Below the pieces are notes generated by a model. The model was not told the origin of the DNA. It was given only the letters and a program-made list of their open reading frames with translations, and did no database searches. This document shows, in pieces, positions 5,228 to 59,580 of a DNA stretch of 64,000 nt (position 1 is the first letter of the stretch; each line of letters begins with the position of its first letter). Made by a program: the position numbers and the translations under genes. This DNA comes from a bacterium (GTDB lineage: Bacteria; Krumholzibacteriota; Krumholzibacteriia; LZORAL124-64-63). The stretch lies in contig JAHIYU010000075.1 of the NCBI GenBank assembly GCA_018814885.1, positions 8,852-72,851 of the forward strand. Reading direction: 5' to 3'.

Positions 5228-5240
5228 GGCGACCTCCTCG

Positions 5241-6308: not shown

Positions 6309-6339
6309 CGTCCACCCTTCCTCGTGCGTCGGATCATCG

Positions 6340-10202: not shown

Positions 10203-10296
10203 GGATACCGCCCGTTGCCGCACCGCGAGCGGCATGTTACCGTGGGAAAGGACTCATGCACGATTCCCACCCAAACCAGATGTCGCGAGGTCGCAC

Positions 10297-13038: not shown

Positions 13039-13317
13039 CTATTTCACGAGCGACATCTTGACGGTCGCGTCGGCTCCTCCGGTGCGCGCCCTCAGGAAGT
13101 AGACTCCGCTGGCCTGAGGTTGCCCGCGGTCGTCGCGCCCCTCCCAGGTGACGGAGTGCCAGCCCGGCGAGACGGTGCCCTGGTGAAGGCTGCGTACGCG
13201 CCTGCCGGCCATGTCGTAGACGTCCACCCGCAGATCCACCTCGCCCGCGTCGCCCGGGATGTAGAGCTTGACCTCCGTGCTCGGGTTGAAGGGGTTGGGG
13301 TGATTCGGCTGCAAAGT
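13039..13317 (-). other. T9SS type-A C-terminal sorting domain (Por_Secre_tail-like) of the C25 protein
   Basis: TLQPNHPNPFNPSTEVKLYI...VYDMAGRRV...WEGRDDRGQPQASGVYFLRARTGGADATVKMSLVK. Confidence 0.7.
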
Positions 13318-16300
13318 CAACCGCGAGGGCTTCGGGATGTCCGGCACCTCGGTGGTGCTCAGGATCCTGAAGACGCCGTCGCGCAGGTTGTTGCCGCGGA
13401 AGGTCAGCCAGGGGGCCTCGGTGCCGTCGAAGGCATAGGGCATGTCCCATACGTGGATCAACAGATCCCAACCGCCGTAGACGATGTCTACGTCATGATC
13501 CCTGTCGAGATCGCAGATCACGGGTGTGGGATTGACCGGTCCGCCGAGCGAGAGCGGGAAGCCCTCCACGTCCGTACCGTCGTGCTTGAAGGCGTACAGG
13601 TTGTTGGGCGACTCTGTGTTGCCGCCGCCGATGCCGAACAGGATGTCCAGCATGCCGTCGCCGTTGATGTCGCCGACCACGGGGTTCGAATTCGAGTTGC
13701 CGGGCACCATGATCGGCCAGCCGGGCATGGTCTCGCCGCTCGTGCCGCCGACGTAGTCCGTGTCGATCAAGTGCACGTACGACTCGAGGCTGCCGAAGAC
13801 CTCGACCGCCACGATCTCGAGTTCGCCATCGTCGTCGAAATCGCCGACCGCCGGACTCGGGCAGGTGCGGTCGCCGTTGTCGCTCTGGGCCCGGAAGTAG
13901 ATCGGGAATCCGGTATAGTACGAGCCGTTCTCGTGCACGACGTGAAGCTGGTCGTCCTCCGAGACGAAGATGATCTCCCAGATTCCGTCCGCGTCCAGGT
14001 CGGCCACCGTGGGACTGACCATGATGCTGCCGCCGCCCCCGGTCTCGATGGGGAAGCCGGGCAACTGGGTACCGTCCCAGCGGTAGGCGCGCAGCGAGTT
14101 GGTGGTCTCCCATCCGTAGCGCGTGCCGAAGATGATGTCCTTGGCGCCGTCGTGGTCCAGGTCGAAGAGGGCGGGCCCGGAGCGGTTCCAGCCGGCCCAC
14201 GAGAGTTCGGCCGTACGATCGATGAGCGGCCCGTTGGTGGCGGGGTTGCTGTCGCCGTCGCGAACCTCGGTGCCGTCGGCGTGCCAGGCCAGTGTGACCC
14301 GATTCAGGTTGTTGCAGACGATCTCCGGCTCGCCGTCGCCGTCGATGTCGCCCACGGCTGCCGGCGCCCAGACCCAGCCCGCACCTGTCGACTGGGGCCA
14401 CCCCGGCAGCAGGGTGCCGTCGGACTTGAAGACGTAGATGAGCTTCAGGTCGCGGTCGGAGCAGATGATCTCCGCGCCGGGCTCGCCGTCCAGCTCGGCC
14501 AGGGTGACGGCCATCGCGGTCAACCGGCCCGTGAGGTTGGTGATGGGACCGCGCGTCTGGGCGTTGTCGTCGCCGTCGAACAGCTCGCCGCCGTCCTCGG
14601 TCCAGACGTACACCTCGTCGGCCGTGAGCACCACTTCCAGACGGCCGTCGCCCGTCACGTCGCCGACAGCGCAGTGGCTGTCGGTCTCGCGACCGAAGGG
14701 CAGGGGAAAATCGCCCGTCTCCGGGGGTGCCGTGCTCTTGGCGAACGGATCTGATTGGTCTCCCTCGATCAGCGAGGTATTCACGGCCGAGACGCGGTAG
14801 TAGTAGCGGGTCAGCAGATCGAGCCCGGAGTCGCGGAAGTAGGAGATCCCCTCCAGGAGATCGACGTTGGCCCGCGCGTAGGGGCCGCCTTCGGCATCAC
14901 TGCGATACACGTGATAGCCGCGTGCGTCGTCACCAGCCACCGGGTCCCAGACCAGCTCGATCACGTCGGCGCCCAGGGTCAGGCCGGAATCGATGCCCTG
15001 CGGCACGTCCGGATCGACGATCTGGAAGTCGTGGGTGAAGGTCCGCCCCATGTTGTCCACGAAATCGATCCGTGCGTCGTAGGCCTGGGACGTGTCGATG
15101 ACCGCCATCGAGAAGAGGGCGGCGCCGTTGGACGTGTCCATCAGGGCGAGTCCCGTATACGTCACCACGGTGTCGTGAAGCGTGACGTTGGGGCTGTTGG
15201 TCCGCAGGTATCCCGTGATCATGTCGGCGAAACCCGCACCGAAATTCTTGAGACGCAGAACGATGGAGATGCGCTCGTTGTCGTCCACGATGCCGTCGCT
15301 GTTGCCGTAGAAGGTGTCGAACCAGGTCAGGGCGATGGGCTCGACTTCCGGGGCCATCATGGTCGCCCCCCACTCGCTGAACCAGGACGAGCCGCCGTCG
15401 TCGACCTCGATCGTGAAGTCCAGGTTCATGCCGTCCCACATCAGCTGATGCGCCGCGACCAGGAACGGAGCGCTCGCGGCGACGGATCCACCGGAAGGCA
15501 CGTCGGGCACCGCGACCACGCCGACGTTGAGCACCAGACCGGGCGTGGTGGTGGTCAGGGTCGCGGTCAGGCCGGTGGCTCCGCCCGTGCCGGTATCCTC
15601 GAAGCGCGCGGCGAGGGCCACAGTCTCTCCCGCCTCGATGACCCCGTTGCCGTTGCCGCTCGAGCCGAGCGTGCCGTCATCGATGACGGTCATCGATTCC
15701 AGCGCGATATAGGCGCCGGGATTGGAGACCGTCACCGTCACCGATGTCTGCTCGATGTTGGTGCCGTTCACGGTCAAGGTGAGATCGCCGCCCTCGGTCA
15801 GGGTGACGGGCAAGGCGACCTGTCCGACGCCGTCGGTGACGTCGCGCACGTAGACGCCGCCGGTCCGGGCGAGGGTGACCCGCGCGCCGACGACGGGTGA
15901 GCCGCCGGATGTGACGGTCACGTTGACCGTCTGCTGGCCGGTCACGAGGCTGCCGGGCGCGGCGATGACGACCGCCGCCGGGTCCGCGGTCCACATTTTC
16001 TGGGCGGGGTCGCCCAGCAGGGTGTAGTTCATGTAGGTCCAGCGCGTGAAGCTGTTGGTGGAGGCGAAATCGAGCCAGGGCAGTCGGCTCAAGGTCATCA
16101 GGTCGCCGAGTCGCGGCTCTCCCTCACACATCAGCTGATTGAAGAACTCGACCTGGAAGTCGTTGGCCGTGGAGGGAAAGGCGGCGCGGCTGGCGCCGAT
16201 GGAGGCGAAGGAGCCGCCATTGGGGTTCTGCACGAAACGTTCCATGAGGCACGAGTAGTCGAAGGCGGCGGATGCGCAGTTCAACGCATACATGAGGAAC

Positions 16301-17910
16301 GTGTTCTCGTTTGTCAGGGCGTCGGCGTCGCCGCCGGTGATGTTCAGATCACCCACCGACATGTCGAAGAAGAAGCCGTGTCCGATCTGGTTGAAGATGC
16401 CGTAGCGGCCGGTGTCCAGGCTGTCGAGCACCGCCCGACGGGTCTCGTTGACCGATCCGGGATACAGGAGCTGATCGAACTCGTCCCTCTCGTCGTAGGA
16501 TTCGTAGAGCCGGATGTACTCCATGTCCGTGCACGGCTCGATCACCGAGTCGACCAGGCCTTCGGCATAGTTGGCGCCGTCGAGGGTGATGTCCCCATCC
16601 TGGTTGCGGAACAACACCTCGGCCGCGAACATGAAGCGGTTGCCAAAGCCGGAGCCGGTCTGGGCGGACTCCTGGGCGATGACCTTGTTCACGAAAACGG
16701 TTGCCGCGGCGGCATTGCTGACCGGCGCCCGGCCGAAGCCGATATCGCTCGACATGTCGCAATCATCGCCGGGGTTGAGCACGCTCTGGTTCGGTTCCCC
16801 GAAGATCATGTCGCCGTCGGCGTTCCAGTTCCCGTCCAGACAGGCGAAGTACAGGTCGGCGGGGATATCGGTGCTGCCGCCGGGCGGGTAGAAGTCGCTG
16901 GTGATGAAACGAGCCGGCACGATATCCGTATCGCCTCCCAGCAGGACATATTCCACTCCCCAGCGCTGATAGGCGTCGCGAATGAACATGCGGATGGTTT
17001 CCTGAATATCCACTCCGTGCCGGTAGTTGTCCTCGATCCAGCTGATGGTCTTGACGACGGCCGGCAACCCCTGTGCCGTGCGGGAGACCGCCAGGGGCTC
17101 GAACGCGCTCGCGAGCCCGTCGCTGGTGATGATCAAGTACGCTACGTCGCTTCCGCTCAGGCTGGGTGTCTTGCTGGGAGCGAAGCCCTTTGCGGGTCCG
17201 GCGACGGTGATGCCGTCCTCGCGCTGATAGCCGGATAACGTGCCGGGATTGTCCACGGTGGCGGCCAGGATCCGCTCCAGGCGGGCGCGCTCGCCGGGAA
17301 CCTTGCGTTGGCGGACTGCCACGCTCTCGAGTGCGACGGGCACTAGCGAAGGCCGCAAGCGCACTTCGAAGCGATCGAGGAATTCCAGCGAGCCCCAGTC
17401 GCCCGCGGCGGTTCGCGTGGCGCGCAGGGGATAGACGGTGACAGTCGCCATCTTGAAGCCACGGAAGATCTGCACTCCGCCGTAGCGCCCCCAGGCGGAG
17501 GGATAGACCGAGGACTCGGCATCACCGTGCAGGGACTGGCCGACGGCTATGCCTTCGCTGCTGATCGCCTTGCCGGCGACGCGTAGGGGCGCCGGCGCGG
17601 AGACGCCATGGGTAGCGAGGGGAACGACCTCGATGTCTCCGACCGCGATGTCCAGCGGGACCAGCAAGGTCAGGGAACGTCCCACCAGTTCGGGGATGTC
17701 CGTGTCCTCCAGGCTGCGGGTGCCCGCCAGGACCGGCACGACGGTGCCGTCGCCGGTGTCGGACCAGCTCAGGCCGCTTGCGGTGAAAGTGCCCTCGTAT
17801 ATGACCTCTCCCCCCGCATGCGCCGAGATCGTGAAGATCGGCAGCAACAGCGCCAGGGCGAACGGCAGGATGATCACTGTGCGGTTGTTCAAGATTTGAT
17901 GCCTGAGCAT
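13039..17910 (-). CDS. gingipain-like peptidase C25 megaprotein with FG-GAP/VCBS repeats and a T9SS C-terminal sorting domain
   Basis: Signal peptide MLRHQILNNRTVIILPFALALLLPIFTISAHA. C25 motifs include YLIITSDGL, LLGGDTDIVP, YFACLDGNW, the catalytic-His region NQIGHGFF and the Cys region YALNCASAAFD. Multiple GDxxGDGxxE FG-GAP repeats follow, and the C-terminus NHPNPFNPST...VYDMAGRRV...SGVYFLR is a Por-secretion-tail motif. Start at 17910 is preceded by GGGGG. Confidence 0.85.
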   Translation of the reverse strand: MLRHQILNNRTVIILPFALALLLPIFTISAHAGGEVIYEGTFTASGLSWSDTGDGTVVPVLAGTRSLEDTDIPELVGRSLTLLVPLDIAVGDIEVVPLATHGVSAPAPLRVAGKAISSEGIAVGQSLHGDAESSVYPSAWGRYGGVQIFRGFKMATVTVYPLRATRTAAGDWGSLEFLDRFEVRLRPSLVPVALESVAVRQRKVPGERARLERILAATVDNPGTLSGYQREDGITVAGPAKGFAPSKTPSLSGSDVAYLIITSDGLASAFEPLAVSRTAQGLPAVVKTISWIEDNYRHGVDIQETIRMFIRDAYQRWGVEYVLLGGDTDIVPARFITSDFYPPGGSTDIPADLYFACLDGNWNADGDMIFGEPNQSVLNPGDDCDMSSDIGFGRAPVSNAAAATVFVNKVIAQESAQTGSGFGNRFMFAAEVLFRNQDGDITLDGANYAEGLVDSVIEPCTDMEYIRLYESYDERDEFDQLLYPGSVNETRRAVLDSLDTGRYGIFNQIGHGFFFDMSVGDLNITGGDADALTNENTFLMYALNCASAAFDYSCLMERFVQNPNGGSFASIGASRAAFPSTANDFQVEFFNQLMCEGEPRLGDLMTLSRLPWLDFASTNSFTRWTYMNYTLLGDPAQKMWTADPAAVVIAAPGSLVTGQQTVNVTVTSGGSPVVGARVTLARTGGVYVRDVTDGVGQVALPVTLTEGGDLTLTVNGTNIEQTSVTVTVSNPGAYIALESMTVIDDGTLGSSGNGNGVIEAGETVALAARFEDTGTGGATGLTATLTTTTPGLVLNVGVVAVPDVPSGGSVAASAPFLVAAHQLMWDGMNLDFTIEVDDGGSSWFSEWGATMMAPEVEPIALTWFDTFYGNSDGIVDDNERISIVLRLKNFGAGFADMITGYLRTNSPNVTLHDTVVTYTGLALMDTSNGAALFSMAVIDTSQAYDARIDFVDNMGRTFTHDFQIVDPDVPQGIDSGLTLGADVIELVWDPVAGDDARGYHVYRSDAEGGPYARANVDLLEGISYFRDSGLDLLTRYYYRVSAVNTSLIEGDQSDPFAKSTAPPETGDFPLPFGRETDSHCAVGDVTGDGRLEVVLTADEVYVWTEDGGELFDGDDNAQTRGPITNLTGRLTAMAVTLAELDGEPGAEIICSDRDLKLIYVFKSDGTLLPGWPQSTGAGWVWAPAAVGDIDGDGEPEIVCNNLNRVTLAWHADGTEVRDGDSNPATNGPLIDRTAELSWAGWNRSGPALFDLDHDGAKDIIFGTRYGWETTNSLRAYRWDGTQLPGFPIETGGGGSIMVSPTVADLDADGIWEIIFVSEDDQLHVVHENGSYYTGFPIYFRAQSDNGDRTCPSPAVGDFDDDGELEIVAVEVFGSLESYVHLIDTDYVGGTSGETMPGWPIMVPGNSNSNPVVGDINGDGMLDILFGIGGGNTESPNNLYAFKHDGTDVEGFPLSLGGPVNPTPVICDLDRDHDVDIVYGGWDLLIHVWDMPYAFDGTEAPWLTFRGNNLRDGVFRILSTTEVPDIPKPSRLTLQPNHPNPFNPSTEVKLYIPGDAGEVDLRVDVYDMAGRRVRSLHQGTVSPGWHSVTWEGRDDRGQPQASGVYFLRARTGGADATVKMSLVK

Positions 17911-18353
17911 TCCATACCCCCGATGTATGGAGTCCCTGAGGACTCGCGAAAGTCTGTCTGTAGGTAATTGCTCTGCAGAGCACTCGCCGTCGTGAGAAAC
18001 ACCTGGTGCGCCAATTCGGTCGCGAGCCGCGACCGCCCCCGAACAGATAGCCTCGTCGCCCAGCATGCCTCCTGGCAAATGTCTTATGTGGCGGGCGCCG
18101 CGCGTCTTACACGGCACCCGAGAGTGTACTCCAATATGACGCTCGTGTCAACTTCGGCAGGGCGGGATCCACCCCGCGAGCGCCATCCGCCCGTCGCGCT
18201 GGCACCGGGGCCGGCGAGGCTGGAATGTCAGATACGACCGGGCCGGGGTCCACATGCAACACCCGAAGTTGTATCGTGTCCACGACACGTGCGCCGCAGG
18301 CCGGCGTACGGTTACGAGAGCATGTCGAATTATACCATGCGGGAGACTGTAAA

Positions 18354-19700
18354 TCAATCCGCGGCAGCATATGGCAAGTCGATGATGTGTGTCGTGCGGG
18401 GGCTCAACCAGACGATGCCCATGCTCCGGCCGTCGGTCGCGGGCAGCCGGACGGGCCGCCGGGAATGGGTCAGGTTGCGCAACACCAGCCGTTGGCCGCT
18501 GCTGCGCAGGCTGGTGCCGCTGCGCAAGAGTTGCGCGGTCTCGACATCGGTGAGATAGATGGGCTCGTGCTCCGGATCCCCCCCCAGCTGGTCGAGGACG
18601 TGTACCAGGGCGGCGAAGCCCACGTCCACCGTTTCCGGGTCGAAATGGGCATAGTTCACCCTGTGGGTGCCGACGATCGCCGGCTCGCCCGACCGCCAGG
18701 CCCTCTGCACGCTCTCGATACAGGTCGAGGCGTGTCGCGAGGAATCCTCGGCTTGAGCTCCCTCGAGGCGGCAGTTCCGATTCAAGTACACGATCTCCTT
18801 CTCGGTCAGATAGCGCCAGCTGCGCTCACAGACTTTCCAGATACGGTCCCAGATCGTCACCTCGAGCTTGGAGAGGGAGCGCTGCTCGCGTTTGGCCTGG
18901 ATGATGCGCAATCCTTCGCGCAGCCACATCCGTTCCCGCAGACGATCCCAGGCGTAGTCGGGCGCAGCGACCGATTGAGGTGCCCGGCCGAACAGCTTCG
19001 CGAAAGCGCCCATGCCTTCCCTCAGTTCGGCGATAAATTCTTCGGGATCCCGGTCCAACGCCAGTTCGTAGGAGCGGGCACCATCGGGGAATATCAGCAA
19101 GCCCAGCCTGGCCGCGTCCTGGGCTTCGCCGTTGCCTGCCACCGTGGTACGGCGATCTTCGGGATCGTAATGCCACATGCCGTGGTACTCCGGCCACCAG
19201 ACGCCGGCGGCGATCGCCTGGCGCACGGCCGGCCAGAGATCGTCCCGTCCGTATTTCTCCGGGAGACTGGGAAGGATAGCCCGGCGCCATATGCGGTCCG
19301 TGTTGTCCGGAGTCGATGCGGCGTAGGAGAGCGAGCCCATGATGTAATTCGGCTGGAAGACGGCCGGCACGCCGTCACGCCCCGGATGGGCGGACAACAG
19401 GTCGGCCAGGCGCGCCACGGTGGCTCCGTCCTCCAAGGTCGAGTAGAGATAGACTGGCGGAAATTCACCCGGACAGATGGCTTCGATATCGATGCTGTCC
19501 AGGGCTCCGCGACTGGGCGTGAAGCCGCATAGGCCCCAGTCGTCGCTCTCGATGACGACCGCCCGCGCCGCGGTCCAGTCCACGGCGCCGCGCGGCTTCA
19601 ACAAGACGAACCCGCTGGCGAATGCCGTGCCGATCACGGCGAGTGCTAGCAGGTCCAGAAGTGGAAACCCGGTAAATGTTCGCGGCCTAATCAAATCCAC
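18354..19700 (-). CDS. hypothetical membrane-anchored protein (448 aa; possible carbohydrate esterase/deacetylase-like)
   Basis: N-terminal TM helix (LLDLLALAVIGTAFASGFVLL), a Trp-rich globular domain and protein-like composition; no confident family assignment. Confidence 0.5.
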   Translation of the reverse strand: MDLIRPRTFTGFPLLDLLALAVIGTAFASGFVLLKPRGAVDWTAARAVVIESDDWGLCGFTPSRGALDSIDIEAICPGEFPPVYLYSTLEDGATVARLADLLSAHPGRDGVPAVFQPNYIMGSLSYAASTPDNTDRIWRRAILPSLPEKYGRDDLWPAVRQAIAAGVWWPEYHGMWHYDPEDRRTTVAGNGEAQDAARLGLLIFPDGARSYELALDRDPEEFIAELREGMGAFAKLFGRAPQSVAAPDYAWDRLRERMWLREGLRIIQAKREQRSLSKLEVTIWDRIWKVCERSWRYLTEKEIVYLNRNCRLEGAQAEDSSRHASTCIESVQRAWRSGEPAIVGTHRVNYAHFDPETVDVGFAALVHVLDQLGGDPEHEPIYLTDVETAQLLRSGTSLRSSGQRLVLRNLTHSRRPVRLPATDGRSMGIVWLSPRTTHIIDLPYAAAD

Positions 19701-20350
19701 TCTCGTTCATACCGAGCCCACCAGTAATGTCCGTAGTCGATGCCCTCCTCAGCGACTTTGCGGACCAAGGCTGCGGCGTCATTCGCAATGACTCCCCGTT
19801 CATCCACCAATAATGATAACACATCATGGCGTCCGGCCGGCGAGAATTGATTCTTCGTCAGACCGAATGTCCAGGCTCCGGGTCGTACGCCATTCGCCGC
19901 GAACCGCTCGAATTCCCGCTTGGCGAGCAGACCTTTCCGCCAAGGGACGATTTGCGCGAGCAGTTCCTGCAGGTCCCGGTAGTTGCGGGCAGGACCCGGC
20001 TGCTCGGCCGGCTCGTCCTCGAAGATATACAAACATCCGCCGGCGGCCAAGCAGTCGATCCAGGCATCCGTCGGGCTGGATCGTCCCAACTTGTCCCAGA
20101 GGTGCCGCAACAGGTTGGCGGCGACCATGAGGGTCACTTCCCTGAACGGCGGCGCGGCTGCGTCGGCAAGCACCCCATGACCCGGCGCGAACACGTCGCT
20201 GCGGATTCGATCGGACATCACCACCCGGGCCCCCGCCGCGTCCAGGATACGCGTGAACCGGCCGTCGCCACAGCCGAGCTCGACGGTCAGGCCTGTCGAC
20301 GAGCTTCTCAGGTCAGTCTGGAACGCGTCGGGAAGAGGTGAGAACGACAT
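19691..20350 (-). CDS. class I SAM-dependent methyltransferase
   Basis: VELGCGDGRFT glycine-rich motif I; start chosen at MSFSPLPD. Confidence 0.6.
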   Translation of the reverse strand: MSFSPLPDAFQTDLRSSSTGLTVELGCGDGRFTRILDAAGARVVMSDRIRSDVFAPGHGVLADAAAPPFREVTLMVAANLLRHLWDKLGRSSPTDAWIDCLAAGGCLYIFEDEPAEQPGPARNYRDLQELLAQIVPWRKGLLAKREFERFAANGVRPGAWTFGLTKNQFSPAGRHDVLSLLVDERGVIANDAAALVRKVAEEGIDYGHYWWARYEREWI

Positions 20351-21656
20351 TGTCCGGGCCCGTCTCCGGTTCGTCTGCAGGTACGGAGGCCGCTCTCGCG
20401 ATCGACTCCAGTTCACCGGGGTGGTCGACCACTTCGGCCGGCGCGCGTGAACCGGCGGCGGCCGTCATCACGCGCGAGACCTTGTTGCGCTCCGCCTGGA
20501 TATCGATGATCTCAGCGACCTGGCGGCGTCGGCGCCGGAAGGTGTCCTCGACCTTGTCGTCCAGACCGAGCACGAACAGCAACTCGCTGAAGAAATCGAG
20601 CGCAGGACCCGAATCCTCGCGCCGCCGGCGATCGACCCAGATCTGCACGGGCCACAGACAGCACGCGAGGGCCGGTAAACCCAACCAGGGAATTGACAGC
20701 GAATCGGACAGGGCGAAAAGGACCGATCCGGCCGTGATGAGCAGCAGGAGCCTGACGGTGCTGCCGGGCTGGAATCCGAGCCTGACCAGTCGATGGTGAA
20801 GGTGGTAGTCGTCCGCCTCGAAGATCGAGGCGCGCTTGCGGTAGCGACGGATGATGGTAGTGCCGGTGTCCCAGATGGGCACGACCATCGGCGCCAGCAA
20901 CAATAGCAGCGAGACGCCGTTGCGTTGCCCGAGATGCATCAGGAGGCTCGCCAGCACCAGTCCCATCCACATGCTGCCCGAATCGCCCAGGAAGATCTTG
21001 CGCCTGCTCACGTTCCAGTACAGGAAGGCGAGCGAGGCGCCCCCCAGCGTGGAGGCGAAGAGCAGGGAAAAGAAATCACCCATCACGAACGCCACGGCCG
21101 CGATGCAAATGGTGGCTATCACGCCGATGCCGCTGGCTAGGCCGTCCAGTCCGTCTATGAGGTTCATGGAGTTGATGAATCCCAGGTACCAGAGCAGGGT
21201 CACCGGCCAGGCCCAACCGCCAAGATCAACCGCTCCGGCCAGGGGCAGGACGACCGTGGTCAGACGCTGGCCCATGACCATCAGGCCCAGGATCACCAGC
21301 AGCTGCCCGTAGAGTTTCTTCTCGGCGTGTATGTGGAATCGGTCGTCGCCGACGCCGAGGGCCATGATGGCGAGTCCGGATCCGCCCAGAGCCGCCAGCC
21401 AGGACCAGGGCAGCGGTTCGGTCAGGACCAGGTCGTCGAGGATGTACAGGGTGACGAAGAAGGAGATAAAGATGGCCATTCCGCCGGTGCGCGGCACCGG
21501 CTCACGGTGCGAACGCCGATAGCCGGGATGATCCACGATACCCGTAAGAAAGCCCAGACTCCGGAAATGGGGCTGAACCAACCAAGACAGTACAAAAGCG
21601 ACCGAGGCGCTGAGCAGAACGATGACTTCCGTATTCAAAATCGTCCCCTTGGGCAT
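20313..21656 (-). CDS. polyprenyl-phosphate N-acetylhexosamine-1-phosphate transferase (WecA/MraY superfamily, GT4 family)
   Basis: About 10 TM helices, the DDxxD motif (VGDDRFH region), NSMNLIDGLDGLASG, and a long cytoplasmic tail; start chosen at MPKGTILN. Confidence 0.8.
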   Translation of the reverse strand: MPKGTILNTEVIVLLSASVAFVLSWLVQPHFRSLGFLTGIVDHPGYRRSHREPVPRTGGMAIFISFFVTLYILDDLVLTEPLPWSWLAALGGSGLAIMALGVGDDRFHIHAEKKLYGQLLVILGLMVMGQRLTTVVLPLAGAVDLGGWAWPVTLLWYLGFINSMNLIDGLDGLASGIGVIATICIAAVAFVMGDFFSLLFASTLGGASLAFLYWNVSRRKIFLGDSGSMWMGLVLASLLMHLGQRNGVSLLLLLAPMVVPIWDTGTTIIRRYRKRASIFEADDYHLHHRLVRLGFQPGSTVRLLLLITAGSVLFALSDSLSIPWLGLPALACCLWPVQIWVDRRRREDSGPALDFFSELLFVLGLDDKVEDTFRRRRRQVAEIIDIQAERNKVSRVMTAAAGSRAPAEVVDHPGELESIARAASVPADEPETGPDNVVLTSSRRVPD

Positions 21657-21724
21657 TTGACCACCGCTCCGTCGGCGGTTCTTGCAACTCGCACCGTATG
21701 GCAAGCTCCGCGGGGTGGCAACGA

Positions 21725-22876
21725 TTATTTAGTCACAAGATGTCGCCGACTCAATATCCTCTGGAATGCAGCAAACGTCCTTTCCGCCGTGGCCTGCCAG
21801 TCCCAGGTGCGGCAATGCTCGAGGCCGGCGACCGCCATGCGCCCGGCGAGGTCATCGTCCCGCCAGAGACGCATCATGGCTCGAGATATCTCCCCGGTGG
21901 AATCCGGATCTACCAGCAAGGCCGCCTCGCCGGCCACTTCGCGCATCGCGCCTCGATTCGAAGTGATCACCGGCAGCCGAGCGGCCATTGCTTCCAAGAT
22001 CGGAAATCCGAAACCCTCATGCAAGGATGGGAAGAGCAAGACTCGGGCCGAAATCATGCGTTGCCACAGTTCTTCACGGTCACAATGTCCGACGATTTCG
22101 ACGGAGCCGTCCTCAGATGTCCTGCGCAACTTGTTGACCAATCCCGTATTACACCAACCGTCGGCTCCAACGATTACCAACCGGGGCAGGCCGCGGCCAG
22201 CGGCAGAAGCGGCCGCTTCCCGCCTGAAGCCGACGAAAGCGTCCAGAATGCGCGACAGGTTCTTCCGGGGTTCCAGGGCGCCGATGAACAGAAAAGGCGC
22301 TTCGGGTCCCCGCAGGGGCGGCGGCTCACGCCCGGTGACCCACTGGGGTGTCCCGAACCTTGTCACCTCGATCTTGGCGGCCGCGCGCGGGTAGAGTTCC
22401 GCCAGCTCGCGCCCGGTATTGTGCGAATTGACGATAACGACTTCCGACCGGGCCAGAGACAAGGGCAACAGCAGACGATACCCCCAGCGTCGCAGCGGCT
22501 CCACGGTTCGGGGATGAAGGCGAAAGGCGACGTCGTGGATCGTGACCAGCACGGGACAGGGCGCGAGCACCGGGGTCGGAAAGGTCGGTACGTGGAGGAC
22601 GTCCGCGCCGAGCCTGCCGGCCAGTCTCGGCAAACCCAGCTGCGTCCATTTCACACGCGCCAGGGTGCCCGACCCGGCACCGCACGCGACCATGCGCCAT
22701 TCTCTCGCCCGGTCGAGAAACGGGTACAGTTCGGGATGATCGGTGGTCAACACGAAGCGGGCGCCGCGCTCGGACGCCGACAGCGCGCGCACCAATTCCA
22801 CCACGGACCAGGGGACGCCCGTGCAGGGCGGACTCGCCACCTGTCCGTCGATGACGATCAGCGGTCCGGGGTTCAC
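21725..22876 (-). CDS. GT-B glycosyltransferase, family GT4
   Basis: EGFGFPILEAMAARLPVITS (EX7E motif); a GTG start at 22876 is preceded by GGGGAGGGG and overlaps the upstream stop (GTGA). Confidence 0.8.
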   Translation of the reverse strand: MNPGPLIVIDGQVASPPCTGVPWSVVELVRALSASERGARFVLTTDHPELYPFLDRAREWRMVACGAGSGTLARVKWTQLGLPRLAGRLGADVLHVPTFPTPVLAPCPVLVTIHDVAFRLHPRTVEPLRRWGYRLLLPLSLARSEVVIVNSHNTGRELAELYPRAAAKIEVTRFGTPQWVTGREPPPLRGPEAPFLFIGALEPRKNLSRILDAFVGFRREAAASAAGRGLPRLVIVGADGWCNTGLVNKLRRTSEDGSVEIVGHCDREELWQRMISARVLLFPSLHEGFGFPILEAMAARLPVITSNRGAMREVAGEAALLVDPDSTGEISRAMMRLWRDDDLAGRMAVAGLEHCRTWDWQATAERTFAAFQRILSRRHLVTK

Positions 22877-24276
22877 GACCGCCCCTCCCCGGCCTCGGAA
22901 GGCTTGTCGCCGCCAGACAGCGCCGCCAGCAACAGGCCCAAGGACACCCAGATGTGCGGCAGGTTGTACTGGGAGAACGTCAGGAGTTGGAACCAGACGG
23001 CAGTCACGCCCACGGTGGCGGCCACCAGCCGTCGCTGTGCGATCGGGAGCGACCGTCCCTCCGCCACCTGTCGGGGAGCCAGTGAGCGCCAGACGCGACC
23101 GGCCAGGGCAATCATCCCGCATACGAACGCCGCGAAACCGAACAGGCCCGTCTCGCAGAGGACCGCCAGTGGATAGTTGTTGACTACGGGCCAGGCGAAC
23201 TGGCTCTGCAGGCCCATCGGATCGACCAACAAGGCGAAATGATAGCCATATTGCCCCCATCCGATACCGAAGATCGGCTGCAGCAGGAAAGCGCGCCAGG
23301 CCGCCTGCATCGAATACAGGCGGGTGAGGTTGGACCAGTCCTCCATGTTGACCGATTGCCGGACCCGCTGCGCCATCAGCGCGAAGACCTGCCCATCCGT
23401 CAGGACGTAGGCGACGAGCACCAGGATGCCGGCACCCGCCAAGGCGCGCCAAGGCTTCGGTGCTATGCGCAGACCGCCCGAGCGCCGCAGGCAGATCAAG
23501 CCGACAACGATGCCGGGAACGACCGCCAGCCACGCCCCGCGTGACCATGTCGAAAACAGCAGGATAACGCCGGCCGCGGGCAGCCAGAACAACCTGCGGC
23601 GCCCGCTGGCAAGCAGGATCGTCCACGGCAGCAGCGCCAGGACGTAGTTGCCAAGATACAGGGGCTCGCAGGCGGTGCCCCTCACACGCGGAATACCCAC
23701 GAAATCCCGGCCCAAGTACAATTCCCCCGAACCCGACAAGACGGCTGGATTGGATGTGAAGAGGGAGTCCAAGCCGGCGAAGACGGTGCCCGGACCGTAG
23801 AAGTCCACCACCTGCCAGGCACCGTAGAGGAACTGGAACGACAGGCCCGCCATCAGCGCGATCAAGGCCTGGCGCCAGCGGGTCTCCCCGCGCAGCCAGA
23901 CGGCCAGATGCAGGGCGAAGGCGGACATCAACAGCCACTGCGTCAGCTGGCGGCCGTACCTGGCCCACGCCTCCTGTGGTGTCGCCAATCCGGGCGAGCG
24001 CCAGACGCCGACGGCCGAAAGGAGGATCGCCAACAGGGCCAGGGACCAGATCCAGGGCGCAGGAACCGCCTTCGCCGCGCGTCCCTTGCCGTAGGCTCCA
24101 CTGGACCAGGAGGCGACGACGGCCACGGCGAGCAACAGGTAGGCCGGCTGGAATCCCGCGCCCAGATCCCGGCCCGTCGTCGCCCGGGCAACGCAGAGCC
24201 CGATCCAGGGCAGGGTCGCCAGGCAGGCCAGGGTGGACCAGTCCGCGAGCCGGTCGGTACCGGATCCGCGCGTCAT
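22873..24276 (-). CDS. O-antigen ligase/polymerase family membrane protein (WaaL/Wzy_C/PglL-like)
   Basis: About 10-12 TM helices, with a large loop carrying the IFGIGWGQYGYHF motif typical of the Wzy_C domain. Confidence 0.7.
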   Translation of the reverse strand: MTRGSGTDRLADWSTLACLATLPWIGLCVARATTGRDLGAGFQPAYLLLAVAVVASWSSGAYGKGRAAKAVPAPWIWSLALLAILLSAVGVWRSPGLATPQEAWARYGRQLTQWLLMSAFALHLAVWLRGETRWRQALIALMAGLSFQFLYGAWQVVDFYGPGTVFAGLDSLFTSNPAVLSGSGELYLGRDFVGIPRVRGTACEPLYLGNYVLALLPWTILLASGRRRLFWLPAAGVILLFSTWSRGAWLAVVPGIVVGLICLRRSGGLRIAPKPWRALAGAGILVLVAYVLTDGQVFALMAQRVRQSVNMEDWSNLTRLYSMQAAWRAFLLQPIFGIGWGQYGYHFALLVDPMGLQSQFAWPVVNNYPLAVLCETGLFGFAAFVCGMIALAGRVWRSLAPRQVAEGRSLPIAQRRLVAATVGVTAVWFQLLTFSQYNLPHIWVSLGLLLAALSGGDKPSEAGEGRS

Positions 24277-24842
24277 GATTTCTTCAGCCTCGCACGCGTT
24301 TTCATCATCATGAACGTGGTGATCAGCAGTATGCCCAGGAAGAGCAGGTACTGGGTGCCGGAGTGCTTCTGCGGCTCACGTACGGCGAGCACGAGGCGAC
24401 CCTCGCCTACCTCGAGCACGCCGCGGTTGACAAAGAGCAGGAACGACTCGCCCCTGAGCAGCAGCGGTCCGTCGACGGGATACTCGCCTGTCACGAACCG
24501 CAATCTGCGACCGCGGCTGACGCCGCCGAGCTCCGTCCCGTAGGGGAGGCTCAGGCCCGTCTCGCCGACCGTCACCGGCACGGTGTCGGCGAGGACTGTC
24601 AACGCGCCCCAGGCCCAGGACCAGCTCCTGACGCCGTCGCCCTCATCCACGACGGGATCGAGGATGCCCTGACCGTCCAGCCCCTCGACGACCAGCATCC
24701 CTGGCGCGGCAGGATGTCGCTCCGACTCCCGACGCCCCTCGGCCCCGGCAGCCGCGGCGAGCAGGATCGTGCAGAGGCAGATATAGGCCAGGGCGGGCAT
24801 GGTCGGCCCGCCCCTGGTGCCGTACTTCAAGAGTTCCTTCAT
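24273..24842 (-). CDS. hypothetical secreted/tail-anchored protein
   Basis: Signal-like N-terminus (MPALAYICLCTILLAAAAGA) and a C-terminal TM helix plus basic tail (YLLFLGILLITTFMMMKTRARLKKS); its stop overlaps the start of the downstream ligase. Confidence 0.45.
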   Translation of the reverse strand: MKELLKYGTRGGPTMPALAYICLCTILLAAAAGAEGRRESERHPAAPGMLVVEGLDGQGILDPVVDEGDGVRSWSWAWGALTVLADTVPVTVGETGLSLPYGTELGGVSRGRRLRFVTGEYPVDGPLLLRGESFLLFVNRGVLEVGEGRLVLAVREPQKHSGTQYLLFLGILLITTFMMMKTRARLKKS

Positions 24843-32407: not shown

Positions 32408-34156
32408 TTATCCGTCCGGTCCCGGCTCTGCCTTGAAATCCGGTCCCGGTCCCGTTGGCAGGGGATACGCCTCGATGCCCTCGGCCAGGATCGGCGCACC
32501 GGTACGCGAGCGCAGCAGGTTCCGCCAGTAGATCAGCCGGGCGTCGTCGTCGGCGGCGAACATCTCCACCCGCGTCACACCGACCGCGGCGAGCTTCGCG
32601 AACAGATCGTCGGGATCCGCCGCTCCCTGCTCGCAGGCCGCCAGAGCGTGCCGCAGATCACGCGTCCACGGCGGCACCCAGCCCGAGACGCCGCCCGTGA
32701 CCGGTCGGCCCGTCGCGAGGGCCCGCCAAAGCCAGCGCGCCTCGCGCAGGTCCTCGCCGTACACGTCGGGCGGCGCCGGCAAGGTCAGGACGGCCTCCGA
32801 GGAGAGCCGGCGCGGCCGGGCGCGGGTCTGATCCGGCAGGGCTACCACTGGCACGGCGACGGGCGCGGACTCCAGCAACAGGAGGATCAAGGCGGCGGCG
32901 GGCAGGACCCGGGCGCGCAGACCGGACAGACCCGCAAGATACGCCCAGCCGGCGGCCGCCCACCAGGCCACCGCCAGCGTGAAGAGGAAGGAAAAGCGCC
33001 AGACGGTGCGAAAAGCCCGCGCCGGAGGCAGGTTCTGCTGCAACCAGCCCATGGGCAGGATCACGCGGCGGCCGGTGCCCGGGATGCCGACGGAATCCCC
33101 GAAAGCCAGGACCAGACCGGCCACACCCGCGGTCAGCAACAAGTAGCCCCATTCTCGACGTCGCGCCGTCAGGCCGGACCTGGCCGCGAAACCCACGGTG
33201 GCCAGCAGCAGCGCCATCCAGCCGGGGTTCAGCACTTGGCGGGCGACACCCAGATGGCGCTTCGCCGGGTCCTCGCCCCGCCCCACCAAGTCGGCGGGCC
33301 CAGCGCGATAGGCGCCCGTGTTGAGCAGGTGCTGCGCATCGGCGCTGTACCACATCACCTCGCCGGGGTGACGGGTGAAATCCACCTCCCGAGCGGCGGT
33401 CTCCAGGTGGGGCGTGGCCAGGATCCACACGCCGGCCGCCGCCACCACCAGCGGCAGGACAGCCGCCCTGGCCGCCGGGCGCCGGGCCAGGGTCCGGTGA
33501 TGGCGCAATACCCATCCCGCCAGCACGATCCCGGCCGCCAACAATGCATAGGCGAAACCGTACCAGCCCATGGCCGCCTGGGCGATGAGAGCCGCGGACA
33601 TCAGCCACCAGTACCTGGCCGTCGCCGTACCGCGCTCCCATCCGGTCAGCGCGCAGATCAGCGCCGCCAGGACGGCCGGCACGCCCGGCGGCGGCAACTG
33701 GTTGAGATGTCCCAGCTGCGCCAGGGTGTATGGCGAGCCGATCAACAGCATGGCTGCCACGCCTCCCGACCGGGCGTCGCCGCCGGAGGCCTGCCAGAGG
33801 GCGGCGGTCGCCGCGCAGGACAGAACCAGCGCGATCAGGAAGGCGGCGTTGTAGAGCGCGGCGGAAGACATGCCCAGCCCGTGGAGGGGCTCGACGAGGA
33901 TCGCCTGGGCCGTCAGCGGATCCATGAAAGCGATGGCGTTTCCGGCGGGATGGAAGATGGGCAGGTGGCGCCAGATCTCGGGATGCCAGACGTGCCGGGC
34001 GCTCCATTCGAGCAGACTCGCCTGGAACACGGCGTCGAGGCCGCCGAAAGGCCCGAGCACGGCTTCTCCCCAGACGCCAAATACTGGGCGCAGACAGATG
34101 ACAAGGAAAAGCCCGCTGGCGAACCAGGTCCAGGGCAAGCGTCCCCTCGCGCCCAT
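32408..34156 (-). CDS. polytopic membrane protein, GT-C-like (putative lipid-linked glycosyltransferase)
   Basis: More than 12 TM helices and protein-like composition. The overlapping 529-aa ORF (32658..34247) is Arg/Gly/Pro-rich and therefore an alternate-frame artefact. The ATG at 34156 overlaps the upstream stop (TGATG). Confidence 0.55.
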   Translation of the reverse strand: MGARGRLPWTWFASGLFLVICLRPVFGVWGEAVLGPFGGLDAVFQASLLEWSARHVWHPEIWRHLPIFHPAGNAIAFMDPLTAQAILVEPLHGLGMSSAALYNAAFLIALVLSCAATAALWQASGGDARSGGVAAMLLIGSPYTLAQLGHLNQLPPPGVPAVLAALICALTGWERGTATARYWWLMSAALIAQAAMGWYGFAYALLAAGIVLAGWVLRHHRTLARRPAARAAVLPLVVAAAGVWILATPHLETAAREVDFTRHPGEVMWYSADAQHLLNTGAYRAGPADLVGRGEDPAKRHLGVARQVLNPGWMALLLATVGFAARSGLTARRREWGYLLLTAGVAGLVLAFGDSVGIPGTGRRVILPMGWLQQNLPPARAFRTVWRFSFLFTLAVAWWAAAGWAYLAGLSGLRARVLPAAALILLLLESAPVAVPVVALPDQTRARPRRLSSEAVLTLPAPPDVYGEDLREARWLWRALATGRPVTGGVSGWVPPWTRDLRHALAACEQGAADPDDLFAKLAAVGVTRVEMFAADDDARLIYWRNLLRSRTGAPILAEGIEAYPLPTGPGPDFKAEPGPDG

Positions 34157-36198: not shown

Positions 36199-36300
36199 AG
36201 TTTCCGGTCAAAAGGGCGGACGGTCAAGCTGCGCTTGCGGCAGCGTGGCGCCGTGGTATCTTCCCGTCTACGATCCGGCACCTCACGCGCAGGAGAGGAC

Positions 36301-59402: not shown

Positions 59403-59580
59403 CAAGCCTCGATCTTGCTGGTGGCCTCGCCGCTGGGGCGGAGGGATCGCGAAAGCCAGCCCAAGTTAGCGCAACTCGTCCCCCAGTTCAATCTCGCATC
59501 AAGCCGCTGTGTTAACCCGCGGAGACGTGCAGCTCGAAGGCGACACCGCACAGCGACGGAGCAATGGGCAAGGAACTTCG

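What the first reader, a model, noticed from the sequence alone, without database searches (positions are those of the whole stretch)
18354..24842. Compact glycan-assembly cluster (tail-anchored protein, WaaL/PglL-like ligase, GT4, WecA-like transferase, SAM-MTase, 448-aa membrane protein) immediately upstream of the T9SS cargo protease
The six co-directional genes have tight or overlapping junctions: ATGA at 24273-24276, GTGA at 22873-22876, and about 38 nt between the WecA-like and MTase genes. They encode an initiating phosphoglycosyltransferase, one GT4, a methyltransferase and an O-antigen-ligase/PglL-family protein. No Wzx flippase, Wzy polymerase or ABC exporter is present. In Porphyromonas, T9SS cargo is anchored to a dedicated A-LPS glycan, and PglL-family enzymes are protein O-oligosaccharyltransferases. 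This cluster, sitting 443 bp upstream of a CTD-bearing protease, could build a short methylated glycan for cargo anchoring or for protein O-glycosylation.
Basis: inference. Interest (0 to 1): 0.75.

Follow-up and report, generated by a model that had tools for sequence, protein, structure and literature searches.

The report
Conserved envelope-glycan operon beside C25 protease
Six tightly packed genes for building a short, chemically modified sugar chain on a membrane lipid carrier and transferring it to a cell-envelope acceptor are found in essentially every sampled genome of the uncultured phylum Krumholzibacteriota, always just upstream of a giant secreted cysteine peptidase, but whether the sugar chain anchors or decorates that peptidase is not shown.

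Summary
Six co-directional, overlapping genes at 18354-24842 (minus strand) encode:
- a small bitopic protein;
- a Wzy_C protein with the WaaL fold;
- a GT4 glycosyltransferase;
- a WecA-type initiating transferase;
- a class I SAM methyltransferase;
- a 448-aa protein, which I identify as a membrane-tethered deacetylase-like enzyme of the CE4/GH57 superfamily, from a family with no Pfam model.

A 1623-aa protein (C25 peptidase, FG-GAP repeats, T9SS sorting domain) starts 443 nt downstream.

The organism is a Krumholzibacteriota MAG. Among 64 species-level genomes of the phylum, g2-g6 are collinear in 47 of 48 testable loci. A C25+CTD gene follows in 57 of 58, in tandem pairs in 16.

The link to the peptidase stays circumstantial:
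- the whole region is syntenic across the phylum;
- one metagenome contig keeps the operon but has no C25 gene;
- the C25 gene has its own conserved promoter-like site and, in the window's own clade, a ~205-nt 5' leader.

The ligase keeps the two arginines needed in WaaL and PglL, but an invariant Asn replaces their essential histidine. It also lacks the PglL motif.

Best reading: a short HexNAc-initiated glycan assembled on a polyprenyl-PP carrier and transferred to an envelope acceptor, most likely lipid A-core. A role in T9SS cargo anchoring is plausible and untested.

The parts
24273..24842 (-). g1: 189-aa protein with an N-terminal signal-like hydrophobic segment, a ~120-aa middle domain, a C-terminal TM helix and a basic tail. 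Its stop overlaps the ligase start (ATGA).
   Evidence: A g1-like ORF ends at the g2 start in 43 of 53 loci. No Pfam, NCBIfam or PDB match.
22873..24276 (-). g2: 467-aa Wzy_C protein with the WaaL fold (GT-C). R246 and R319 correspond to E. coli WaaL R215 and R288. N366 sits where WaaL H338 / PglL H349 would be.
21725..22876 (-). g3: 383-aa GT4 glycosyltransferase with an EX7E motif (HEGFGFPILEAM). Its GTG start overlaps the g2 stop (GTGA).
   Evidence: Missing in one genome, L012.
20313..21659 (-). g4: 448-aa polyprenyl-phosphate HexNAc-1-P transferase of the WecA/MraY superfamily. It has the motifs DD, NxxNxxDGxDGL and HLHH, plus a ~110-aa C-terminal tail. It is the most conserved gene of the block.
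   Evidence: Pfam Glycos_transf_4, E 8e-32. TIGR02380 WecA 117 bits, below its cutoff of 326. 57-91% identity across the phylum. Motifs read from the sequence.
19691..20350 (-). g5: 219-aa class I SAM-dependent methyltransferase-like protein with no TM segment. Its start overlaps the g4 end by 38 nt.
18354..19700 (-). g6: 448-aa protein with an N-terminal TM helix, a (beta/alpha) barrel of the CE4/GH57 deacetylase-hydrolase superfamily, and a C-terminal beta-sandwich. Invariant motifs are ESDDWG, HGxxH and THRxNYxHxD.
18123..18357 (-). Two sigma-70-like promoter matches in the g6-C25 spacer: 18357-18329 (TTGATT-17-TATAAT, with a TG extension) and 18151-18123 (TTGACA-17-TACACT).
   Evidence: In the three-species alignment, the second site is conserved in all three and the first in two.
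17911..18118 (-). Conserved ~205-nt 5' leader of the C25 gene. The predicted structure includes pairing that covers the GGGGG ribosome-binding run.
   Evidence: No Rfam match. The single-sequence fold is not exceptional, z -0.9.
13039..17910 (-). 1623-aa protein: signal peptide, ~230-aa N-terminal region, C25 cysteine peptidase domain with the His/Cys dyad, Ig/Fn3-like domains, FG-GAP repeats, and a T9SS type A C-terminal sorting domain.
   Evidence: His and Cys are kept in 80 of 80 orthologues and paralogues. It is the only CTD protein in the window.

Best explanation
g1-g6 form one translationally coupled operon that is a core feature of the phylum Krumholzibacteriota.

Proposed steps:
1. 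At the cytoplasmic face of the inner membrane, the WecA-type enzyme g4 transfers a HexNAc-1-phosphate to a polyprenyl phosphate.
2. The GT4 enzyme g3 adds one further sugar.
3. The membrane-tethered CE4-like enzyme g6 removes an acyl group, most likely the N-acetyl group.
4. The soluble SAM methyltransferase g5 methylates the glycan.
5. A flippase encoded elsewhere translocates the lipid-linked glycan.
6. The WaaL-fold enzyme g2, probably working with the small periplasm-facing protein g1, transfers the short modified glycan to an envelope acceptor. I consider lipid A-core the most likely acceptor, which would make the product a short LPS cap.

The giant C25/FG-GAP/CTD protein next door is a separately transcribed T9SS-type secreted cysteine peptidase. 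Its functional coupling to the glycan is possible but not shown.

Shown here: gene content, folds, motifs, overlaps and phylum-wide conservation. Inferred: the order of steps, the sugar identities, the topology of g6, the flippase and the acceptor.
For: Gene content and coupling:
- Domain and fold assignments are given.
- The overlapping junctions are conserved across genomes.
- g2-g6 are collinear in 47 of 48 testable species-level loci. g1 is present in 43 of 53.

g4:
- It carries WecA-type motifs, including HLHH, and matches WecA better than MraY.

g6 acting on the cytoplasmic side:
- Its Eisenbacteria homologues have no TM segment or signal peptide, and are always next to a SAM methyltransferase.
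- In Krumholzibacteriota, the K/R count is higher on the C-terminal flank of the TM helix (1.87 against 1.07).

g2:
- It keeps the equivalents of WaaL R215 and R288.

LPS context:
- The same window holds LPS core genes: four GT9 heptosyltransferase-like genes (one fused to a HAD phosphatase), a PfkB kinase and a sulfatase-family membrane enzyme.

Separate transcription of the C25 gene:
- A 443-nt spacer holds two promoter-like sites, and a conserved leader follows.
Against: - The canonical histidine (E. coli WaaL H338, PglL H349) is an invariant Asn in this family. The chemistry or the acceptor may therefore differ from WaaL.
- No flippase lies within 10 kb in any locus where genes were called.
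- The LPS core genes are 12-17 kb away, not adjacent.
- No NCBIfam model names the ligase.
- I could not check whether these genomes carry a second, canonical waaL.
- The near-universal adjacency to a CTD protein (57 of 58 loci) is also what a dedicated cargo-linked function would predict.
Confidence: 0.45

Rival explanations
1. Dedicated T9SS anchor. The operon makes a special glycolipid, or LPS cap, whose free amine is exposed by the g6 deacetylase. A sortase-type reaction then attaches CTD cargo, including the neighbouring C25 protein, to that amine.
For: - A C25+CTD gene lies immediately downstream in 57 of 58 species-level loci.
- In P. gingivalis, the putative CE4 enzyme VimE exposes an amine on the linking sugar. 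The anchor is assembled on Und-PP by an initiating transferase plus glycosyltransferases, and reaches lipid A through WaaL (PMC7468200, PMC13086638).
- WaaL is required for anchoring CTD cargo in C. hutchinsonii (PMC12860637).
- The C-terminal domain passes the T9SS type A model.
Against: - Gene order is conserved far beyond the pair, including unrelated housekeeping genes.
- L005 keeps the operon with no C25 gene.
- The C25 gene has a separate promoter-like site and leader.
- The cluster has no VimA-like aminoacyl transferase and no Wbp genes.
- Methylation by g5 is not part of the known anchor chemistry.
- I found no T9SS machinery genes among the ORFs scanned in the window, and no literature on T9SS in this phylum.
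Confidence: 0.2
2. Protein O-glycosylation. g2 is a PglL-like oligosaccharyltransferase that transfers the short glycan onto Ser/Thr of periplasmic or surface proteins. Possible targets are the adjacent giant protein or g1.
For: - PglL and WaaL share Wzy_C and cannot be told apart by that domain alone.
- pglL genes are often adjacent to, and co-oriented with, their target genes (PMC3643930).
- g1 is translationally coupled to g2.
- A short glycan with no polymerase is typical of O-glycosylation loci.
Against: - There is no PglL_A (PF15864) or Wzy_C_2 match.
- The PglL H349 equivalent is Asn.
- The only strong fold match is WaaL. However, no entry annotated as PglL or Wzy appeared among the matches, so this does not discriminate.
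Confidence: 0.15
3. Polymerase. g2 is a Wzy-type polymerase. The operon makes a partly de-N-acetylated, methylated disaccharide-repeat surface polysaccharide.
For: - From general knowledge, some Wzy polymerases carry the Wzy_C domain and rely on arginines rather than the WaaL histidine.
- g2 has five invariant arginines and lacks that histidine.
- A protein with a Wzz chain-length domain lies at 57780-59465 in the window.
Against: - No Wzx, Wza or Wzc is in or near the block in any locus.
- One genome (L012) lacks the GT4 gene and so could not form a disaccharide repeat.
- The Wzz-like gene is 33 kb away.
Confidence: 0.1

Closest known systems
WaaL O-antigen ligase pathway (E. coli WaaL; C. 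metallidurans WaaL structure 7TPJ) with WecA initiation
   Same: - Equivalents of R215 and R288 are present.
- A WecA-type initiating enzyme carries the HLHH motif.
- Heptosyltransferase genes lie in the same window.
   Different: - 16% identity in the structural alignment, and no profile-to-sequence match to solved WaaL.
- An invariant Asn replaces the essential H338.
- An extra, translationally coupled bitopic partner (g1) is present.
- The operon has no wzx, wzy or wzz.
- The operon includes a CE4-like enzyme and a methyltransferase.
P. gingivalis A-LPS linker pathway (WbaP, GtfC, GtfF, VimF, VimE, VimA, Wbp enzymes, WaaL) and the PorU sortase
   Same: - An initiating transferase plus glycosyltransferase(s) build a short glycan on a lipid carrier.
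- A putative CE4-type deacetylase is part of the pathway.
- A WaaL-type ligase completes it.
- The neighbouring gene encodes a C25-family protein with a T9SS C-terminal domain.
   Different: - The initiating enzyme is of the WecA type, not the WbaP type.
- The cluster has no Wbp genes and no VimA.
- g6 is not recognised by the CE4 Pfam model, whereas VimE is a clear CE4 member.
- The C25 protein scores 108 bits against a PorU cutoff of 420.
- The organism is outside Bacteroidota.
PglL/PilO protein O-oligosaccharyltransferase loci
   Same: - A Wzy_C enzyme lies in a compact locus making a short glycan.
- It sits next to, and co-oriented with, a candidate secreted target protein.
   Different: - PglL_A motif absent.
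- The H349 equivalent is absent.
- No pilin-like target is present.
ArnD and PIG-L type deacylases acting on lipid-linked amino sugars
   Different: - No sequence-level relationship.
- g6 has an extra C-terminal beta-sandwich.
- Its substrate is unknown.
- PIG-L has a different fold (general knowledge, not tested here).

Membership tests
WaaL O-antigen ligase | Wzy_C (PF04932) domain | tested here: met
   E 3.2e-14, 53 bits against a cutoff of 31.7, residues 235-385.
WaaL O-antigen ligase | Multi-helix GT-C fold like solved WaaL | tested here: met
   [not shown]
WaaL O-antigen ligase / PglL | The three functionally important residues of the Wzy_C region (E. coli R215, R288, H338; PglL R224, R298, H349; PMC3643930) | tested here: not met
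   R246 and R319 are invariant and match the two arginines. The His position maps to invariant N366 (motif VVNNYPLAVLCETG against HNEIIEAG). The mapping uses Pfam profile coordinates and motif comparison, not a residue-level structural alignment. H346 (27 of 28) and H441 (28 of 28) are conserved elsewhere in the protein.
WaaL O-antigen ligase | Gene located in an LPS core or O-antigen locus | tested here: inconclusive
   Four GT9 genes at 1321-6389 and a PfkB kinase at 9261-10253 lie 12-17 kb downstream, separated by unrelated genes.
WaaL O-antigen ligase | Transfers an Und-PP-linked glycan to lipid A-core | not testable with these tools
   Requires genetics or biochemistry.
PglL O-oligosaccharyltransferase | PglL_A motif (PF15864), which separates PglL from WaaL | tested here: not met
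   Wzy_C is the only Pfam family at E <= 0.01.
PglL O-oligosaccharyltransferase | Gene adjacent to and co-oriented with its target glycoprotein gene | tested here: inconclusive
   The secreted proteins g1 (upstream, overlapping) and C25-CTD (five genes downstream) are co-oriented. Neither is shown to be glycosylated.
WecA (UDP-GlcNAc:undecaprenyl-P GlcNAc-1-P transferase) | PNPT superfamily domain, with a score above the WecA equivalog cutoff | tested here: inconclusive
   Glycos_transf_4 at 111 bits meets the superfamily test. TIGR02380 at 117 bits is below its cutoff of 326 but well above MraY at 47 bits. The DD, NxxNxxDGxDGL and HLHH motifs are present in the sequence.
GT4 glycosyltransferase | Glyco_transf_4 and Glycos_transf_1 domains with an EX7E motif | tested here: met
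   The motif HEGFGFPILE is in the sequence.
Class I SAM-dependent methyltransferase | Rossmann-type SAM-binding core with motif I (E/DxGxGxG) | tested here: met
   Invariant ELGxGxGxF. hhalign probability 94%, E 1.2e-7, to Pfam-positive methyltransferases. The Pfam match itself is below threshold (18 bits against 27).
Carbohydrate esterase family 4 (polysaccharide deacetylase) | NodB-type barrel with an Asp-His-His metal site (motifs TFDDG and HxxxH) and a Pfam PF01522 match | tested here: inconclusive
   [not shown]
T9SS type A cargo | C-terminal Por_Secre_tail domain (TIGR04183) | tested here: met
   27.0 bits against a cutoff of 23, residues 1607-1688 of the ORF. FlgD_ig at 37 bits.
PorU T9SS sortase | Full-length match to NF033707 above its cutoff | tested here: not met
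   107.7 bits against a cutoff of 420. Only the C25 core is matched, profile positions 365-749 of 1095. Tandem paralogues occur in 16 genomes.
Peptidase family C25 | C25 domain with the catalytic His-Cys dyad | tested here: met
   190 bits. IGHG and NCAS align to RgpB His211 and Cys244. Both residues are conserved in 80 of 80 sequences.
P. gingivalis Wbp/Vim linking-sugar pathway | WbpA/B/D/E, VimA and VimE genes | tested here: not met
   The cluster has no dehydrogenase, aminotransferase, acetyltransferase or FemAB-like gene, and I found none among the window ORFs scanned. Only a distant analogue of a CE4-type enzyme is present.

The most novel reading that the evidence does not exclude
The operon makes the amine-bearing glycolipid to which a non-Bacteroidota T9SS attaches its cargo. 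The universally conserved neighbouring protein (an active C25 domain, FG-GAP repeats and a retained CTD) would be the attachment enzyme itself: a single polypeptide doing the jobs of the PorU sortase and the glycolipid-presenting PorZ. The His-less WaaL-fold enzyme and its partner g1 would then be a new kind of ligase dedicated to this anchor.
Probability: 0.08. Interest if true: 0.8.

Novelty: new variant of a known kind. Interest (0 to 1): 0.45.

Why it matters
Krumholzibacteriota have no cultured member, and their envelope chemistry is unknown. This operon is one of the most rigidly conserved gene blocks I saw in the phylum, so it likely makes a core envelope glycan.

It offers three concrete handles:
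1. A WaaL-fold family that has replaced the histidine considered essential in WaaL and PglL. This tests current ideas about the ligase mechanism.
2. A family of CE4/GH57-superfamily enzymes with no Pfam model (about 1,500 clusters at 50% identity). Its members are paired with a methyltransferase in two phyla.
3. A natural test of whether LPS-type anchoring of T9SS cargo, known only from Bacteroidota, extends to other phyla of the FCB group.

If the link to the C25 protein is only conserved gene order, the finding is a well-defined but ordinary surface-glycan operon.

Tried and rejected
- **Ligase profile against PDB sequences.** No WaaL, PglL or SEDS match, only chance hits.
- **hhalign of the ligase family against E. 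coli WaaL.** Nothing found, probability 0.1%. Residue mapping therefore had to rest on Pfam profile coordinates and motifs.
- **NCBIfam.** No model for g1, g2, g5 or g6.
- **g1 profile against PDB.** Nothing.
- **FG-GAP region profile against PDB, looking for PorZ.** Only generic FG-GAP proteins such as CRTAC1, YesX, ITFG2 and YenB. A PorZ-like domain is not supported at the sequence level.
- **Whole C25 protein against PDB.** Only weak gingipain R and Fn3 hits, and no PorU structure.
- **First tblastn census.** My C25 query was one base out of frame. That column was discarded and replaced by HMM searches built from correctly framed proteins.
- **ParA-like/CBM48 and DUF212 genes.** They lie upstream of the block in most clades but are absent from the window and its near relatives, so I do not count them as part of the system.
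- **Literature.** No paper mentions Krumholzibacteriota together with type IX secretion.
- **Rfam.** No family matches the window or the leader.
- **tRNAs.** None in the window.
- **g1 as a sorting-signal substrate.** I considered PEP-CTERM or LPXTG types and rejected them. No such motif precedes its C-terminal helix.

Full report
**1. What is in the sequence**

The window has about 66% G+C. On the minus strand between 24842 and 18354 lie six ORFs with strong third-position GC bias:
- g1, 24273-24842, 189 aa
- g2, 22873-24276, 467 aa
- g3, 21725-22876, 383 aa
- g4, 20313-21659, 448 aa
- g5, 19691-20350, 219 aa
- g6, 18354-19700, 448 aa

- g1 and g2 share ATGA.
- g2 and g3 share GTGA.
- g4 and g5 overlap by 38 nt. 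This is an overlap, not a spacer. The g5 start MSFSP is invariant in six genomes, and the same 35-38-nt overlap recurs in them.
- g5 and g6 overlap by 10 nt.
- Only g3 and g4 are separated, by roughly 20-65 nt depending on the g4 start chosen.
- The next gene starts at 17910, 443 nt after the g6 stop. It begins with a signal peptide (MLRHQILNNRTVIILPFALALLLPIFTISAHA).

**2. What the six proteins are**

- **g3** is a GT4 enzyme with an EX7E motif.
- **g4** is a polyprenyl-phosphate N-acetylhexosamine-1-phosphate transferase. It matches Glycos_transf_4 (E 8e-32) and scores 117 bits to WecA against 47 to MraY. Its sequence shows the DD, NxxNxxDGxDGL and HLHH motifs. Their significance is from established knowledge of WecA.
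- **g5** gives only a sub-threshold Pfam methyltransferase match. Its family has an invariant ELGxGxGxF motif I. It also aligns to Pfam-positive methyltransferases with 94% hhalign probability.
- **g6** had no Pfam or NCBIfam match. A model built on 38 homologues (pLDDT 88, pTM 0.88) shows an N-terminal TM helix, a barrel and a C-terminal beta-sandwich.
  - Family-invariant ESDDWG, near-invariant HGxxH and invariant THRxNYxHxD resemble the CE4 Asp-His-His motifs.
  - Individual members give only sub-threshold Pfam hits to GH57 (6 of 38) and Polysacc_deac_1 (3 of 38).
  - An exhaustive profile search finds 1517 cluster representatives at E <= 1e-3 and 437 at E <= 1e-30. Of ten that I scanned, nine have no Pfam family above its gathering threshold and one just passes GH57 (23.1 against 21.2 bits). 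The family has no Pfam model of its own.
- **g1** has an N-terminal signal-like hydrophobic stretch, a poorly conserved middle domain, a C-terminal TM helix and a basic tail. It has no detectable relatives of known function.

**3. Whose genome, and how conserved**

The g6 and g2 proteins are 100% identical to proteins of an NCBI MAG labelled 'bacterium' (locus tag KJ554_04490). Named relatives are Candidatus Krumholzibacteriota.

Five contigs fetched through g6 homologues at 42-72% identity all show the same six-gene block.

A scan of one genome per GTDB species returned 80 loci. Sixty-four are Krumholzibacteriota, some deposited under other names. Sixteen are from a more distant group, mostly labelled Candidatus Eisenbacteria.

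In the Krumholzibacteriota set:
- g2-g3-g4-g5-g6 are collinear in 47 of 48 loci with enough upstream sequence.
- The exception, L012, lacks the GT4 gene.
- A g1-like ORF ends at the g2 start in 43 of 53 loci.
- g4 is the most conserved member, at 57-91% identity.

**4. The neighbouring giant protein**

The protein combines Peptidase_C25 (190 bits), FG-GAP repeats and a C-terminal domain. That domain passes the T9SS type A sorting-domain model (27 bits against 23) and FlgD_ig.

The catalytic His and Cys align to RgpB His211 and Cys244. Both are kept in all 80 orthologues and paralogues.

I built HMMs from the C25 domain and the CTD of five Pfam-annotated orthologues. With these, a ~1600-aa C25+CTD ORF starts within about 1.2 kb downstream of g6 (median about 320 nt), on the same strand, in 57 of 58 loci with at least 2 kb of downstream sequence. 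The 58th (L050) holds fragmented C25 ORFs. Sixteen loci have two tandem paralogues.

It is the only CTD protein in the 64-kb window.

**5. Why the association is still weak evidence of function**

- **Long-range synteny.** Gene order is conserved well beyond this pair. SBP_bac_5 follows the C25 gene(s) wherever sequence allows, followed by HARE-HTH, HIT, PfkB, LexA, HSP20 and Lon. Upstream, glnA and SurA recur. In a phylum with this much synteny, adjacency alone says little.
- **Variable copy number.** The C25 position holds no gene in the metagenome contig L005, where g6 is followed directly by SBP_bac_5. It holds one gene in most loci and two in sixteen. The six-gene block does not vary.
- **Separate transcription signals.**
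  - The two sigma-70-like matches found in 7.5 kb both lie in the 443-nt spacer.
  - TTGACA-17-TACACT is conserved in three species.
  - It is followed by a ~205-nt conserved non-coding leader.
  - The C25 gene therefore looks like its own transcription unit.
- **Not PorU by the NCBIfam test.** The protein scores 107.7 bits against the PorU cutoff of 420, over the C25 core only. Its repeat region resembles generic FG-GAP proteins, not PorZ. Tandem duplication is more typical of cargo than of machinery (my inference).

**6. Classifying the ligase**

Schulz et al. (PMC3643930) report that E. coli WaaL R215, R288 and H338 are functionally important. They are conserved in PglL as R224, R298 and H349. 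The same paper reports that the PglL_A motif (PF15864) separates PglL from WaaL.

- g2 has no PglL_A match.
- I mapped residues using the Pfam Wzy_C coordinates of g2 (235-385 to profile 5-149) and of E. coli WaaL (205-354 to profile 6-146), together with the local motifs.
- R246 and R319 correspond to R215 and R288. Both are invariant in 28 of 28 sequences.
- The histidine position falls on N366, which is also invariant (VVNNYPLAVLCETG against HLHNEIIEAG).
- H346 (27 of 28) and H441 (28 of 28) are conserved elsewhere in the protein.

g2 is therefore WaaL-like in fold and in its arginines, but it fails one defining residue of both WaaL and PglL. I treat it as a divergent family of the WaaL/Wzy_C group whose acceptor is unknown. 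A polymerase role cannot be excluded. This mapping is not a residue-level structural alignment, which I could not obtain.

**7. Topology and order of steps (inference)**

- g5 has no TM segment and needs SAM, so it acts in the cytoplasm.
- The distant homologues of g6 lack any N-terminal hydrophobic segment. In all 17 such loci examined (16 from the GTDB scan plus L003), a class I methyltransferase follows immediately, often with an AMP-binding enzyme. The ligase, GT4 and WecA-like genes are never present there.
- A deacylase-methyltransferase pair therefore recurs in two phyla, and in one of them it is cytoplasmic.
- In Krumholzibacteriota, the flanks of the g6 helix carry more K/R on the C-terminal side (1.87 against 1.07). 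This fits a cytoplasm-facing catalytic domain tethered to the membrane, as in ArnD.
- I therefore place g4, g3, g6 and g5 on the cytoplasmic face, acting on the lipid-linked (or nucleotide-linked) sugar. g2 and g1 act on the periplasmic face, after flipping by an enzyme encoded elsewhere.

**8. Acceptor**

The window carries LPS core genes:
- four GT9 genes at 1321-6389, one of them fused to a HAD phosphatase;
- DUF3108;
- a PfkB kinase;
- a sulfatase-family membrane enzyme.

These organisms therefore make LPS and need a ligase. g2 is the only Wzy_C protein found among the ORFs I scanned. This is why I rank lipid A-core first (0.45).

That reading and the cargo-anchor reading overlap. In P. 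gingivalis the anchor is itself an LPS that WaaL ligates (PMC13086638), and in C. hutchinsonii anchoring needs WaaL (PMC12860637). A CE4-type deacylase that exposes an amine is exactly what the P. gingivalis pathway uses (VimE; PMC7468200). The analogy is real, but the remaining Wbp/Vim genes are not in the cluster or among the scanned ORFs, and nothing here shows attachment.

**9. Verdict**

This is a new variant of a known kind of system (a lipid-carrier glycan pathway ending in a Wzy_C enzyme). Its unusual features are:
- a WaaL-fold ligase family without the canonical histidine;
- a CE4/GH57-superfamily enzyme family with no Pfam model;
- a translationally coupled bitopic partner protein;
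- phylum-wide placement next to a C25-CTD protein.

Interest is moderate (0.45). It would be high if the anchor or sortase reading were confirmed.

Noticed in passing
window 17911-18118 (- strand); also L001 11549-11762, L007 11436-11648, L008 16374-16585, L009 7821-8020, L010 16308-16509, L011 16326-16514: A conserved ~205-nt non-coding 5' leader lies in front of the C25 gene, downstream of a conserved TTGACA-17-TAnAnT site. The RNAalifold structure has 44 pairs, 7 of them with compensatory changes. In it a GCCCGCC stretch pairs with the GGGGG ribosome-binding run. 94% of cells are paired, against 38-48% when partners are slid. There is no Rfam match. The single-sequence fold is not exceptional (z -0.9). 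The leader was detected only in the window's own clade.
   Followed up: partly
L003 10001-12092 and loci L070-L072, L074-L086: In the distant loci (mostly labelled Candidatus Eisenbacteria), the g6 homologue has no TM segment. A class I methyltransferase always follows it immediately, often with an AMP-binding enzyme, an MFS transporter and MacB/FtsX nearby. It is never accompanied by the ligase, GT4 or WecA-like genes. A deacylase-methyltransferase pair thus recurs in two phyla in different contexts.
   Followed up: partly
L012 7768-8027: One Krumholzibacteriia genome (JAWOID010000046) has only 259 nt between the ligase and the WecA-like gene. The GT4 gene is missing while the rest of the block is intact.
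   Followed up: no
L005 10001-13139: A 408-kb metagenome contig keeps the six-gene block but has no C25 gene. g6 (here 495 aa) is followed directly by SBP_bac_5 and then an unannotated 557-aa protein.
   Followed up: no
L004 2631-4869 and most Krumholzibacteriota loci: Most clades have three extra genes between glnA and g1: DUF212, a 357-aa ParA/MinD-like ATPase fused to a CBM48/AMPK1_CBM domain, and a ~184-aa protein. These genes are absent from the window and its closest relatives.
   Followed up: partly
window 1321-6389: Four consecutive GT9 (heptosyltransferase-like) genes lie next to DUF3108. One is fused to a HAD/GmhB-like phosphatase and one matches only below threshold. This looks like an LPS inner-core cluster.
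   Followed up: no
window 57780-59465 (- strand): A 561-aa protein with an N-terminal Wzz chain-length-determinant domain (E 1.9e-6) lies next to a 372-aa ORF with no Pfam match. No other polysaccharide export genes were seen nearby.
   Followed up: no
window 34156-36207 (- strand) and 32408-34420 (- strand): A sulfatase-family membrane protein (LTA-synthase or phosphoethanolamine-transferase-like architecture) lies next to a 670-aa ORF with strong coding bias and no Pfam match.
   Followed up: no
loci L008-L011, L016, L023, L025, L035, L043, L045, L049, L054, L060, L062, L073: Where two C25+CTD genes occur in tandem, the copy next to g6 is the more divergent paralogue (profile E about 1e-125 to 1e-145). 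The second copy is the orthologue of the window's gene (1e-156 to 1e-218). Both keep the catalytic His and Cys.
   Followed up: partly
Genome contigs record titles: Many loci with this Krumholzibacteriota-type block are deposited as 'uncultured Fibrobacteraceae bacterium', 'Gemmatimonas sp.' or 'Gemmatimonadales bacterium'. These are probably mislabelled MAGs.
   Followed up: no
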